Below are positions 11,140 to 17,980 of a stretch of DNA of 64,000 nucleotides, piece by piece. The translations under genes and the position numbers were made by a program. Where the stretch lies: assembly GCA_026396285.1 (NCBI GenBank), contig JAPLXB010000045.1, forward strand, positions 343 to 64,342. The letters run 5' to 3'. Source of the DNA: Candidatus Micrarchaeota archaeon. Lineage in GTDB: Archaea > Micrarchaeota > Micrarchaeia > Norongarragalinales > JAPLXB01. The notes below the pieces were generated by a model, which saw only the letters and a program-made list of their open reading frames with translations, was not told the DNA's origin and searched no databases. The number at the start of each line of letters is the position of its first letter. Within the stretch, counting starts at the first letter, position 1.

Positions 11140-12693
11140 TTGGGTTTCCGGGGTTTGGAACCGGGCCGTCTTGTCCGGCGGCGCCGGGTATTGGGCGCTG
11201 GAAGGCGCCTTTGCGGGAGTGGGTGTGGCTTGTTTCCTGAAATAACCGAATCTTACCTTCGAGAGAACTCGCTCGTCAAGCAGTTCATCGACTCCTACGA
11301 CAAGTTCGTTGAGAACGGGTTGCAGGAAATCGTTGACTCGCAGGCGGTGATAGAGCCGCAGATGGAGGGCGTGGTCGTGAAGCTAGGGCGGGTCAGCCTC
11401 GGCAGGCCGGTCGTCATCGAATACGACGGCTCCAAGAGGGAATTGTGGCCCATGGAGGCGAGGCTCAGGGACCTCACGTACTCGGCGCCGCTGTACCTGG
11501 AAATGACGCAGGCCGTGAACGGCGTTGAAAAGAAGCCCGAGAACGTTTACGTCGGCGAACTCCCGGTGATGCTGAAGTCAAAGCTGTGTTACCTTAGGGG
11601 AAAGAACGCGGACGAACTAGTCCAGGCCGGCGAGGACTCCCACGACCCCGGGGCGTACTTCATAATCAACGGCACCGAGAAATCGCTGATGACGCTGGAG
11701 GACCTGGCGCCGAACAGGATACTGGTGTCGCGCGAGAAGGACAAGGAGATGACGCAGGCCAAGGTTTTCTCCACGCGCCTCGGCTTCAGGGGACGCTGCA
11801 CCGTGGACAGGACGAAGGACGGGAAGTTTTACGTGACCATGCCTTCGTACAGCAAGGCGATTGAACTCATGCTGGTTCTCAAGGCCCTGGGATTGGACAA
11901 GGACGAAAAGGTGCTCGACGCTTTCCCGGAGCAGCCGGAAGTAAGGAACGACGTGCTCCTCAACCTCGAGTCCGACGAGGCGAAGGGCAGGAAGGACGCC
12001 CTTGAATCAATAGGCAAGCGCGCTGCGCCGGGCCAGCCAATTGAATACCAGATGAAGAGGGCGGAACTGCTGCTTGACCGGTATCTCCTGCCGCACATCG
12101 GCGTGAACGAGAAGGACCGGCTGGCGAAAGCGTATTTCCTGTGCAGGATGGCCGAACGGACGGTGTACGTCGCTTACAAGCTGCGGTCAGTCGAGGACAA
12201 GGACCACTACGCCAACAAGCGCCTCAAGATCTCGGGGAAACTGATGGAGGAACTGTTCAGGTACGCGTTCCAGTTTTTGGTCAAGGACGTGACTTACCAG
12301 ATGGAGCGCGCCAACGTCAGGGGCAGGAAAATCAGCATGTTCGCAATCGTGCGGCCTGACGCGCTTTCGGACAGGATAAAGTATTCCATGGCTACCGGCA
12401 ACTGGGTCGGGGGCCACACCGGCGTGTGCCAGCCTCTTGACCGCTACAACTACATTTCGGCAATGAGTTTCCTGCGGAGGGTGACGTCGCCGCTGGCGAA
12501 GAAGCACCCCCACCACAAGGCAAGGGACCTGCACGGCACGCACTGGGGCAGGCTTGACCCGAACGAGACTCCCGAGGGGCCGAACTGCGGCTTGGTGAAG
12601 AACCTGGCGCTGTTCTGCGAAATCACGACCGGCGCCGAAGAGGAGCCGCTGGAAGCGATGTTCAAGAAAGCGGGGGTCACGCTGCGCGCGTGA
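11140..12693 (+). CDS. rpoB2: DNA-directed RNA polymerase subunit B'' (N-terminal half of a split rpoB)
   Basis: Conserved RpoB N-terminal motifs SYLRENSLVKQFIDSYDKFVENGLQEIV and downstream rudder/lobe regions. The gene ends with a stop 27 nt before B'. The N-terminus from the ATG at 11140 is an odd Arg-rich 30 aa, so the true start may be the TTG at 11230, just before ITESYL. Confidence 0.85.
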   Translation: MGFRGLEPGRLVRRRRVLGAGRRLCGSGCGLFPEITESYLRENSLVKQFIDSYDKFVENGLQEIVDSQAVIEPQMEGVVVKLGRVSLGRPVVIEYDGSKRELWPMEARLRDLTYSAPLYLEMTQAVNGVEKKPENVYVGELPVMLKSKLCYLRGKNADELVQAGEDSHDPGAYFIINGTEKSLMTLEDLAPNRILVSREKDKEMTQAKVFSTRLGFRGRCTVDRTKDGKFYVTMPSYSKAIELMLVLKALGLDKDEKVLDAFPEQPEVRNDVLLNLESDEAKGRKDALESIGKRAAPGQPIEYQMKRAELLLDRYLLPHIGVNEKDRLAKAYFLCRMAERTVYVAYKLRSVEDKDHYANKRLKISGKLMEELFRYAFQFLVKDVTYQMERANVRGRKISMFAIVRPDALSDRIKYSMATGNWVGGHTGVCQPLDRYNYISAMSFLRRVTSPLAKKHPHHKARDLHGTHWGRLDPNETPEGPNCGLVKNLALFCEITTGAEEEPLEAMFKKAGVTLRA

Positions 12694-12720
12694 CGGAATA
12701 ACGAATACGGTTTTGGTGAA

Positions 12721-17500: not shown

Positions 17501-17980
17501 AAGGGCATCGCGCGCGCCATCATCGTTGAAATGAACGGCGAACTGACGCTCGCCACCGAGGGAAGCAACCTTGAGGAAGTGTTCAAGATACCCGCAGTGG
17601 ACGCGGTGCGCACGAGCACGAACGACATTGTCGAGATATCCAAGGTGCTGGGCATAGAGGCTGCGCGCAACTCCATCATAACCGAGATAGTGAAAGTCCT
17701 CGATGCACAGGATTTGAAAGTGGACCTGAGGCACATCATGCTCATTGCCGACGCGATGACGCTCAAGGGCGAAGTGAAGTCAATCGGCCGCCACGGGCTG
17801 GCAGGCGAAAAGGCGTCTGTCCTGGCGCGCGCGGCGTTCGAGGAGACCGCGAAGCACTTGCTCAAGGCGTGCGTCTACGGCGAAAGCGACCCGCTGAAGG
17901 GGGTCACTGAAAACATAATCATCGGCCAGACCATTCCCTGCGGCACCGGGACAGTAAACCTGGAAATGGACGTCGACTAG
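14564..17980 (+). CDS. rpoA: DNA-directed RNA polymerase subunit A, unsplit (A' and A'' regions in one 1138-aa reading frame)
   Basis: N-terminal Zn motif CKTCGG..CGGHFGH. Catalytic [10 protein letters not shown]. Bridge helix [18 protein letters not shown]. About 50 aa later, with no intervening stop, come the A''-specific [22 protein letters not shown] and the C-terminal jaw/cleft. The probable true start is [10 protein letters not shown] at 14591. Confidence 0.85.
   Translation: [1138 protein letters not shown]

What the first reader, a model, noticed from the sequence alone, without database searches (positions are those of the whole stretch)
11140..17980. Unusual combination: rpoB split into B''/B' but rpoA not split
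rpoB is in two ORFs (stop at 12693, restart at 12721), as in methanogens, halophiles and many DPANN. rpoA in contrast is a single 1138-aa frame that runs through the canonical A'/A'' break: the bridge helix [10 protein letters not shown] is followed about 50 aa later by [19 protein letters not shown]. From my recollection of the literature (not checked), fused rpoA is otherwise known mainly from Thaumarchaeota, which have an unsplit rpoB. The fused protein is also about 130 aa shorter than A'+A'' together, implying loss of the A' C-tail and A'' N-tail. This is phylogenetically informative and could mark a novel lineage.
Basis: partly seen in the sequence, partly recalled or inferred. Interest (0 to 1): 0.65.

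Follow-up and report, generated by a model that had tools for sequence, protein, structure and literature searches.

The report
Fused rpoA, split rpoB: Micrarchaeota trait
The RNA polymerase operon here really has a two-gene rpoB and a shortened one-gene rpoA, but this is the normal arrangement of a whole, already sequenced branch of the tiny DPANN archaea called Micrarchaeota, so it marks a lineage rather than revealing a new one.

Summary
rpoB is split into B'' (to 12693) and B' (from 12733). rpoA is one uninterrupted 1129-aa ORF (14591-17980) that runs from the bridge helix through the canonical A'/A'' break into the trigger loop.

It is not a sequencing artefact. About 80 homologue clusters at 59-84% identity are single proteins of 1110-1170 aa. 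Six sequenced relatives carry the same fused-A, split-B operon.

The window is a deposited Candidatus Micrarchaeota MAG (protein MCX6768004.1), closest to Norongarragalinales, so it is not a new lineage. Fused rpoA is not confined to Thaumarchaeota. It is routine in Woese-, Pace- and Nanoarchaeota, Bathyarchaeota and some Altiarchaeota, and three Woese/Pacearchaeota loci also pair it with a split rpoB.

The shortening is real. The roughly 96-aa stretch between YGDDG and the trigger loop is reduced to 19 aa. In yeast Rpb1 this position holds residues 877-1056, the foot domain.

Within Micrarchaeota I found fused/fused, fused/split and split/split operons, so these characters change repeatedly. 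Whether this clade re-fused rpoA, or a sister clade re-split it, is unresolved.

The finding is ordinary for its clade, modestly informative, and not described in the papers I could search.

The parts
10863..11105 (+). rpoH (Rpo5/Rpb5 C-terminal domain), first gene of the operon. The start is taken as ATG 10863; the mechanical ORF begins at 10776.
   Evidence: Pfam PF01191, E=3.8e-13. The N-terminus MLSAPTVHVLVPKI aligns with the called rpoH of relative L085.
11230..12693 (+). rpoB'' (N-terminal half of Rpo2). The mechanical ORF starts at TTG 11140. The likely start is TTG 11230, giving 487 aa. The stop is TGA.
   Evidence: Pfam Rpb2 domains 1, 2 and 3 only. Called homologues are 487-490 aa and start at the equivalent position. 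The C-terminus ends at the same aligned position as in relatives.
12694..12732 (+). rpoB''/rpoB' spacer. It is 39 nt to ATG 12733, in frame with both halves, so a single TGA separates them.
   Evidence: Relatives have spacers of -4, 33 and 114 nt in other frame relations, so the split is not a point error.
12733..14562 (+). rpoB' (C-terminal half of Rpo2), 609 aa from ATG 12733. An alternative start is GTG 12721.
   Evidence: Pfam Rpb2 domains 4, 5, 6 and 7. The N-terminus MKVSVYLNGRFIGF aligns with B' starts of other split lineages and with the interior of unsplit RpoB.
14591..17980 (+). rpoA, a single-chain Rpo1 of 1129 aa that corresponds to A' plus A''.
   Evidence: Pfam Rpb1 domains 1-5 in one ORF. 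Residues 1-800 match PDB A' chains and residues 806-1127 match A'' chains from residue ~58-63 on. It is identical to NCBI MCX6768004.1.
15830..15859 (+). Catalytic Mg-binding motif [10 protein letters not shown] (residues 414-423).
   Evidence: Motif position. These residues are invariant in the 44-sequence alignment.
16865..16894 (+). Bridge-helix core [10 protein letters not shown] (residues 759-768).
   Evidence: It aligns with yeast Rpb1 823-876.
16973..17047 (+). Fusion junction [24 protein letters not shown] (residues 795-819). It lies where other archaea have the A' stop and A'' start and where Rpb1 has the foot.
   Evidence: Open frame in the DNA. There are 19 aa between YGDDG and QSIGEP, against 93-98 aa in canonical archaea. 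Rpb1 877-1056 has no counterpart. The junction is conserved in the clade. The AF2 model gives pLDDT 82-90 here.
17048..17104 (+). Start of the trigger loop, [19 protein letters not shown] (residues 820-838).
   Evidence: It aligns with Rpb1 from residue 1058 and with A'' chains from residue ~60.

Best explanation
This is the normal, functional RNA polymerase operon (rpoH-rpoB''-rpoB'-rpoA) of a Micrarchaeota lineage close to Norongarragalinales.

The second-largest subunit is made as two polypeptides. They are cut at the same homologous site as in methanogens, halophiles and other split lineages, between Rpb2 domains 3 and 4.

The largest subunit is made as one 1129-aa chain. The roughly 96-aa segment that in other archaea carries the A' C-tail, the gene break and the A'' N-tail is reduced to a 19-aa connection between YGDDG and the trigger-loop motif QSIGEP. 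That segment is the remnant of the eukaryotic Rpb1 foot.

Relative to the split state of euryarchaeal-type archaea, the fused state is derived. It arose by deletion across the gene boundary, with loss of the stop and start. It is inherited by the whole clade.

Shown here: the gene architecture, its conservation, the exact missing segment, and its phylogenetic distribution.

Inferred: that the single chain folds and assembles like A'+A'', and that the foot remnant is dispensable in these organisms.
For: Architecture.

Segment accounting:
- Residues 1-800 match A' (S. solfataricus 1-855 of 880). Residues 806-1127 match A'' from residue ~58-63.
- Yeast Rpb1 823-876 and 1057-1146 flank a 3-aa gap in the query.
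- The linker is 19 aa here, against 93-98 aa in Thermococcus, Hadarchaeota and Methanosarcinales (split) and 95-97 aa in Bathy/Thaumarchaeota (fused).

Not an artefact:
- 81 clusters at 59-84% identity are single proteins, 1110-1170 aa where complete, longer with inteins.
- The relatives at 84% and 83% identity are also exactly 1129 aa.
- The junction motif YGDDG-x-D-x-x-G-K/R-P-I/V-x-P/Y-GEPVG is conserved in L085, L084 and L003, and largely in L081.

Same fused-A, split-B operon in relatives: L001, L002 and L003 and L083, L084 and L085.

Phylogeny: in neighbour-joining trees of RpoB+RpoA, the window falls in a seven-member clade in which every member is fused-A, split-B. Bootstrap support is 100% with standard corrections, and 70-100% across other corrections and single-gene trees.

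rpoB split site: it is homologous across Micrarchaeota, Nanohalarchaeota, Hydrothermarchaeota and three Woese/Pacearchaeota.

Structure: the AlphaFold2 model has mean pLDDT 75.8 and pTM 0.68. The junction blocks score 82-90, and the low-confidence stretch nearest the junction is the trigger-loop tip.

Identity: NCBI 'Candidatus Micrarchaeota archaeon', MCX6768004.1.
Against: - There are no expression, proteomic or structural data for any of these organisms. All sequences are MAG-derived.
- The trees are distance-based neighbour joining with crude corrections.
- The polarity is unresolved: one fusion at the base of Micrarchaeota followed by a re-split, or two or more later fusions.
- I found no paper that describes the state in Micrarchaeota, so 'routine' rests on my own survey of 85 loci and 120 protein clusters.
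Confidence: 0.9

Rival explanations
1. The fusion is an assembly or sequencing artefact. A real stop codon or frameshift at the A'/A'' boundary was lost, and the organism actually has split rpoA.
For: It is a single MAG contig and no reads are available. In several other archaea A' and A'' sit in the same frame, separated by only one stop codon (L005, L009, L010, L020, L035), so one base error could mimic a fusion.
Against: Dozens of independent assemblies have the same uninterrupted architecture and nearly the same length. Six related loci from different projects show the same open junction with a conserved peptide. There is also no room for a gene boundary, because only 9 aa lie between YGDDG and PGEPVG.
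Confidence: 0.02
2. One reading: fused rpoA with split rpoB is a rare combination that marks a novel, undescribed archaeal lineage.
For: The textbook distribution (fused A in Thaumarchaeota with unsplit B; split B in methanogens and halophiles with split A) does not include this pairing. I found no paper that states it for Micrarchaeota.
Against: The contig is deposited and classified as Micrarchaeota. The pairing occurs in all 7 sampled members of its clade, in another Micrarchaeota branch (L008), and in three Woese/Pacearchaeota loci (L019, L033, L040).
Confidence: 0.04
3. Polarity alternative A. The compact fused rpoA was already present in the last common ancestor of Micrarchaeota. The window's clade simply retains it. 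The split-A Micrarchaeota (Burarchaeum-like clade) re-split the gene secondarily within the same short linker.
For: Fused-A lineages sit on both sides of the deepest Micrarchaeota split. L081 groups with the window clade (96-100%). L008 and L082 group with the split-A clade in 51-89% of replicates and with the window half in 0-12%. That makes one fission against at least two fusions by parsimony. The A'' N-tails in the split clade are only about 5-17 aa before the PGE motif, as expected for a new start created in a short linker.
Against: Fission needs a new stop, start and ribosome-binding site, and is generally rarer than fusion (general knowledge). The A' tails of the split clade begin with the canonical DP-x-K/R-S motif and share an ERE* end, which fits an inherited gene boundary. 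The placement of the long branches L008 and L082 is only moderately supported.
Confidence: 0.4
4. Polarity alternative B. The Micrarchaeota ancestor had split rpoA with an already shortened linker. rpoA then fused independently at least twice in the phylum: once in the lineage of the window clade plus L081, and once or twice in L008 and L082.
For: Fusion of adjacent co-oriented genes is mechanistically easy. Spacers in the split clade are as short as 1-3 nt in L036, L049 and L005. Junction peptides of the two fused groups differ in length and sequence, 19-21 aa against 31 aa. In Altiarchaeota a fused form (L007) and a split form (L058) coexist, and the fused linker looks like a deletion derivative of the split one.
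Against: It needs one more event than alternative A on my tree.
Confidence: 0.5

Closest known systems
A-type (unsplit) RpoA of Thaumarchaeota, Bathyarchaeota and Korarchaeota (Da Cunha et al. 2017, PMC5484517; Spang et al. 2013, PMC3852633)
   Same: There is one ORF for the largest RNAP subunit, with no break between the bridge helix and the trigger loop.
   Different: Those proteins are about 1270-1290 aa and keep a 95-97-aa linker. The window has 19 aa. Their rpoB is unsplit. They are phylogenetically remote from the window in the RpoB+RpoA tree.
Secondary rpoA fusion reported for Pacearchaeota (Da Cunha et al. 2017, PMC5484517), seen here across Woese-, Pace- and Nanoarchaeota loci
   Same: It is a DPANN lineage with a compact single-chain RpoA of about 1140-1190 aa and a linker of about 23 aa. 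Three members (L019, L033, L040) also have a split rpoB.
   Different: It is a separate, 100%-supported clade. The junction peptide differs (e.g. YGDDGIDVSKLHLNEKISPGEAIG). In 22 of 25 sampled members rpoB is unsplit.
Split rpoB (B''/B') of methanogens, halophiles and related Euryarchaeota
   Same: The break falls between Rpb2 domains 3 and 4. It is at the same aligned position as in Hydrothermarchaeota and Nanohalarchaeota.
   Different: Those lineages pair it with a split rpoA (L063, L020). No methanogen or halophile rpoB locus was in my sample, so the comparison with them rests on domain content and established knowledge.
Split-A, split-B Micrarchaeota (Burarchaeum and relatives: L005, L036, L045, L048, L049, L066, L069)
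   Same: They are the same phylum (100% support), have the same split rpoB, and have an already shortened linker (A' tail 9-25 aa, A'' head about 13-25 aa).
   Different: They keep separate A' (about 840-855 aa) and A'' (about 340-355 aa) genes.
Eukaryotic Rpb1 and bacterial beta'
   Same: They are single-chain largest subunits with the same order of catalytic loop, bridge helix and trigger loop.
   Different: Yeast Rpb1 has about 180 aa (877-1056, the foot) where the window has about 3 unaligned residues. The window has no CTD.

Membership tests
Archaeal RNAP largest subunit (Rpo1/RpoA) | Rpb1 domains 1-5 in canonical order | tested here: met
   PF04997, PF00623, PF04983, PF05000 and PF04998, all far above their gathering scores.
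Archaeal RNAP largest subunit (Rpo1/RpoA) | Catalytic [10 protein letters not shown], bridge helix and trigger-loop motifs intact | tested here: met
   Motifs at residues 414, 759 and 820. They are invariant or nearly invariant in the 44-sequence alignment.
A-type (unsplit) archaeal RpoA | One uninterrupted reading frame across the A'/A'' boundary | tested here: met
   The N- and C-terminal pieces hit the same stop-to-stop frame.
A-type (unsplit) archaeal RpoA | The fusion is conserved in independent relatives, so it is not an assembly error | tested here: met
Thaumarchaeal/bathyarchaeal-type unsplit RpoA | Full-length linker of about 95 aa between YGxDG and the trigger loop, protein about 1270-1290 aa | tested here: not met
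   19 aa and 1129 aa in the window, against 95-97 aa and 1268-1294 aa in Bathy/Thaumarchaeota loci.
Thaumarchaeal/bathyarchaeal-type unsplit RpoA | Phylogenetic affinity of RpoA/RpoB to the TACK lineages | tested here: not met
   The window groups with Micrarchaeota at 100% and is remote from the Bathy/Thaumarchaeota loci.
Split rpoB (B''/B') | Two ORFs that divide Rpb2 domains 1-3 from domains 4-7 | tested here: met
Split rpoB (B''/B') | The break is at the homologous position in other split lineages and is conserved in relatives | tested here: met
   Alignment. Relatives have spacers of -4 to 114 nt in different frames. Separate genes are called in L083, L084 and L085.
Micrarchaeota (class Micrarchaeia; Norongarragalinales-like clade) | The closest homologues and the tree position lie within the group | tested here: met
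   Source names for top hits are Micrarchaeota, Micrarchaeia or Norongarragalinales. The clade has 100% bootstrap support. Lineage. Order-level assignment was not tested with a standard marker set.
Functional single-chain subunit | The protein is expressed as one polypeptide and assembles into active RNAP | not testable with these tools
   Only indirect support: conservation, and an AF2 model with a confident junction.

The most novel reading that the evidence does not exclude
The compact, foot-less, single-chain RpoA was ancestral to all Micrarchaeota, and perhaps to a wider DPANN group. One Micrarchaeota clade later re-split the gene within the same short linker.

Combined with repeated rpoB fusion or fission in the same phylum, this would make the RNAP split/fused characters highly homoplastic. 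They have been used as 'rare' genomic changes to argue for the root of Archaea.

It would also show that the archaeal foot remnant is dispensable for a cellular RNAP.
Probability: 0.35. Interest if true: 0.5.

Novelty: new member of a known kind. Interest (0 to 1): 0.3.

Why it matters
1. The split or fused state of rpoA has been used as a rare genomic change in arguments about the root of Archaea. Da Cunha et al. [quoted passage not shown] In my sample, three of the four combinations occur inside Micrarchaeota alone and all four occur across DPANN. At least four state changes of rpoA are needed on the sampled DPANN tree, so the character is unreliable at depth but useful at order level.

2. 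The fused protein shows that the segment homologous to the Rpb1 foot can be reduced to a short loop in a cellular RNAP. This is a natural deletion experiment for people who study RNAP assembly.

3. A practical point: the protein is annotated as 'subunit A''. Pipelines that expect separate A' and A'' genes may therefore score A'' as missing in these genomes.

Tried and rejected
- **Regex anchors:** anchoring on YG[DE]DG and QS.GEP to measure linkers failed for about half of the loci. I read those junctions from the printed sequence, and a second script crashed part-way, so linker lengths for Woese/Pacearchaeota are hand counts of about 23 aa.
- **Literature:** seven searches found no statement on the rpoA or rpoB state in Micrarchaeota. 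The nearest is the Pacearchaeota remark in PMC5484517. The paper on the Pol II foot (PMC3753863) is not held, so the residue range of the foot is from my own knowledge plus the alignment gap.
- **TGA recoding between B'' and B':** the two halves are in frame with a single TGA between them. I rejected read-through or recoding because TGA also ends rpoH and rpoB', B'' ends at the same aligned residue in relatives, and their spacers differ in length and frame.
- **Thaumarchaeal-type ancestral fusion:** rejected on linker length and tree position.
- **Horizontal transfer of rpoB or rpoA as a cause of the mixed states:** A-only and B-only trees give the same Micrarchaeota topology, so there is no sign of it.
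- **Fold search on the AF2 model:** not run. It would add nothing beyond the sequence matches to PDB chains.
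Full report
**1. What is in the sequence**

The ORF listing shows three consecutive plus-strand ORFs:
- 11140-12693 (517 codons)
- 12721-14562 (613 codons)
- 14564-17980 (1138 codons)

They are preceded by an Rpb5/RpoH ORF. Pfam puts Rpb2 domains 1-3 in the first ORF and Rpb2 domains 4-7 in the second. All five Rpb1 domains lie in the third.

The DNA between the rpoB halves reads TGA (12691-12693), then 27 nt to a GTG or 39 nt to ATG 12733, in the same frame.

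Likely real starts, from comparison with called genes of relatives, are:
- rpoH: ATG 10863
- rpoB'': TTG 11230 (487 aa)
- rpoB': ATG 12733
- rpoA: ATG 14591 (1129 aa)

The last equals NCBI protein MCX6768004.1.

In the 1129-aa RpoA the bridge-helix motif [10 protein letters not shown] is at residue 759, YGDDG at 795, PGEPVG at 809 and [19 protein letters not shown] at 820. The frame is open throughout.

The only slip is that the junction lies at nt 16973-17047, not 17100-17200.

**2. What exactly is missing**

Against solved archaeal RNAPs:
- Residues 1-800 align with A' (S. solfataricus residues up to 855 of 880; Thermococcus A' is 906 aa).
- Residues 806-1127 align with A'' starting at residue 58-63 of about 391-397.

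Against yeast Rpb1, the query aligns to 823-876, and three residues later to 1057/1058-1146. Rpb1 877-1056 has no counterpart. From my knowledge of the Pol II structure this is the foot. [quoted passage not shown]

I measured the distance from YG(D/G)DG to QSxGEP across 80 fetched loci (some hand-counted). For split genes it is the A' tail plus the A'' head.

| Group | rpoA state | Linker (aa) |
|---|---|---|
| Window | fused | 19 |
| Closest Micrarchaeota | fused | 19-21 |
| Micrarchaeota L008 | fused | 31 |
| Woese/Pace/Nanoarchaeota | fused | about 23 |
| Altiarchaeota L007 | fused | 30 |
| Altiarchaeota L058 | split | 57 |
| Thermococcus, Hadarchaeota, Methanosarcinales | split | 93-98 |
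| Bathy- and Thaumarchaeota | fused | 95-97 |
| Thermoplasmata | split | 123-238 |

Pairwise global alignments show where the window's total deficit of about 125-145 aa lies:
- about 75-84 aa at the junction
- about 25 aa after residue ~105-114
- about 20-45 aa spread over residues 492-547
- offset by an 8-9-aa insertion after residue 646

**3. Is it real**

A protein search returned the window's own protein at 100% identity, from a 64,874-bp NCBI contig named 'Candidatus Micrarchaeota archaeon'.

It also returned 80 further 90%-identity clusters at 59-84% identity. All carry Rpb1 domains 1-5 in one protein of 1110-1170 aa. The exceptions are intein-bearing versions of 1600-1670 aa and a few partial sequences. 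The two nearest (84% and 83%) are exactly 1129 aa.

The junction peptide is conserved in the clade:
- window: [20 protein letters not shown]
- L085: YGDDGKDATGKPVAYGEPVG
- L084: YGDDGNDSSGKPIAYGEPVG
- L003: YGGDGLDASGRPITYGEPVG

An AlphaFold2 model built on a 44-sequence alignment has mean pLDDT 75.8 and pTM 0.68. Blocks 771-820 score 82-90. The low-confidence stretch closest to the junction is the trigger-loop tip at 831-844, as expected for a mobile element. An assembly artefact is excluded for practical purposes.

The rpoB split is equally solid. The break aligns at one position in Micrarchaeota, Nanohalarchaeota, Hydrothermarchaeota and three Woese/Pacearchaeota. The spacers in relatives are -4, 33 and 114 nt in differing frames. 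TGA also terminates rpoH and rpoB'.

**4. How the states are distributed**

A scan of one genome per GTDB species gave 80 loci spanning Archaea. I scored each by asking whether the window's N- and C-terminal pieces hit the same stop-to-stop frame. Of 67 fully scorable operons (66 loci plus the window):

| rpoA | rpoB | Count | Members |
|---|---|---|---|
| fused | fused | 38 | Bathy-, Thaum-, most Woese/Pace/Nanoarchaeota, Altiarchaeota L007 |
| split | fused | 12 | Thermococcus, Hadarchaeota, Thermoplasmata, Altiarchaeales L058, Culexmicrobium |
| split | split | 9 | Hydrothermarchaeota, Nanohalarchaeota, seven Micrarchaeota including Burarchaeum |
| fused | split | 8 | window; Micrarchaeota L001, L002, L003, L008; Woese/Pacearchaeota L019, L033, L040 |

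Five further contexts were fetched by exact protein look-up:
- P0002 (84%), P0010 (69%) and P0072 (63%) have fused A with split B.
- P0079 (59%) and P0085 (53%) have both genes fused.

**5. Phylogenetic frame**

I built neighbour-joining trees on trimmed RpoB+RpoA alignments (53 taxa, about 2190 columns, 200 bootstraps). I repeated them with three distance corrections and with each gene alone. Results:
- Micrarchaeota are monophyletic at 100%.
- One half of the phylum is L081 (fused A, fused B) plus a seven-member clade that contains the window, in which every member is fused-A, split-B. This grouping has 96-100% support.
- The other half is L008 (fused A, split B) plus L082 (fused A, fused B), joined to a seven-member split-A, split-B clade. 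The joining has 51-89% support. L008 and L082 group with the window half in only 0-12% of replicates.

Three combinations therefore coexist in one phylum, and fused-A lineages flank the split-A clade.

Parsimony slightly favours a fused-A ancestor with one later fission. Mechanistic ease favours a split ancestor with two or more fusions: spacers are 1-3 nt in L036, L049 and L005, and the two fused groups have different junction peptides. I cannot decide between these and rate them about 0.4 and 0.5.

Relative to the wider set, the short fused linkers look like deletion derivatives of the canonical split arrangement. The Altiarchaeales L058 and Nanohalarchaeota L020 A'' heads still end in the canonical Y-x-K/R-A/M-x-V/Y-x-PGE motif. 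These trees are crude distance trees and should be treated as a frame, not a result.

**6. Comparison with what is known**

Da Cunha et al. 2017 (PMC5484517) describe the A-type in Thaumarchaeota and Korarchaeota. They refer to fused Bathyarchaea sequences and find the A-type in one Lokiarchaeum bin. They note 'a secondary fusion in Pacearchaeota', and they excluded Micrarchaea from their data set.

Spang et al. 2013 (PMC3852633) list the unsplit gene as a thaumarchaeal feature.

I found no paper that states the rpoA or rpoB state of Micrarchaeota. The library does not include most subscription journals, so this is weak negative evidence.

The suggestion of a novel lineage is not supported, because the contig is a deposited Micrarchaeota MAG and its whole clade shares the state.

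**7. Verdict**

This is a genuine, functional-looking operon that is typical of its clade: split rpoB at the standard site, and a secondarily compacted single-gene rpoA that lacks the foot remnant.

It is a new, apparently unreported member of a known kind of variation, namely fused or split RNAP large-subunit genes in Archaea. Its main value is as an order-level marker and as a warning that these characters change often in DPANN. Interest 0.3.

Noticed in passing
window 17981-26633 (minus strand): The canonical archaeal continuation of the operon (L30e-nusA-S12-S7) is absent after rpoA. The coding strand switches at about 18000. It is followed by a 391-aa coiled-coil-like ORF (18054-19229), a 286-aa ORF with no Pfam hit (19261-20121) and a 2019-aa giant ORF (20574-26633). 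The giant ORF has a HerA/DUF87-type ATPase region at residues ~1680-1850 and a NEW3/NPCBM_assoc domain at ~1416-1479.
   Followed up: partly
window 8804-10366 (minus strand): A 520-aa PIN + PilT/T2SSE-like ATPase + KH-domain protein lies upstream of, and divergent from, rpoH. The same gene type sits next to rpoH in the closest relative, L085.
   Followed up: partly
window 1-64000: ARAGORN finds no tRNA gene in the whole 64-kb window. This may be chance, or the tRNA genes may be intron-containing or split and so missed by the tool.
   Followed up: no
L085 1060-4035; proteins P0028, P0055, P0057, P0061, P0064, P0066: Inteins come and go in these polymerase genes. The closest relative (84% RpoA identity) has an intein in rpoB'' (991 aa, PF14890) that the window lacks. 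Several Micrarchaeota RpoA homologues are 1600-1670 aa with PF14528/PF14890 intein domains.
   Followed up: no
window 12691-12733: rpoB'' and rpoB' are in the same reading frame with a single TGA between them. Many other archaea likewise have A' and A'' in frame, separated by one stop (L005, L009, L010, L020, L025, L035, L045, L070, L079). In such arrangements a single substitution in the stop codon would open a continuous frame across both genes.
   Followed up: partly
L054 (DATKOK010000090.1) and L076 (JBKHKA010000001.1): These look like mis-binned or mislabelled records. A contig titled 'Candidatus Methylomirabilota bacterium' carries a Bathyarchaeota-type archaeal rpoB-rpoA operon. A contig titled 'Aenigmatarchaeota' groups with the Thermoplasmata loci and has their long linker insertion.
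   Followed up: no
L061, L070, L074, L075, L076, L079: Thermoplasmata-type loci have a greatly expanded, lysine- and glutamate-rich linker (123-238 aa) at the same A'/A'' boundary. This is the opposite trend to the DPANN deletion.
   Followed up: no
L083 5540-6004: In relative P0072/L083 an extra 154-aa ORF with no Pfam hit sits between rpoB' and rpoA. The window has no such gene.
   Followed up: no
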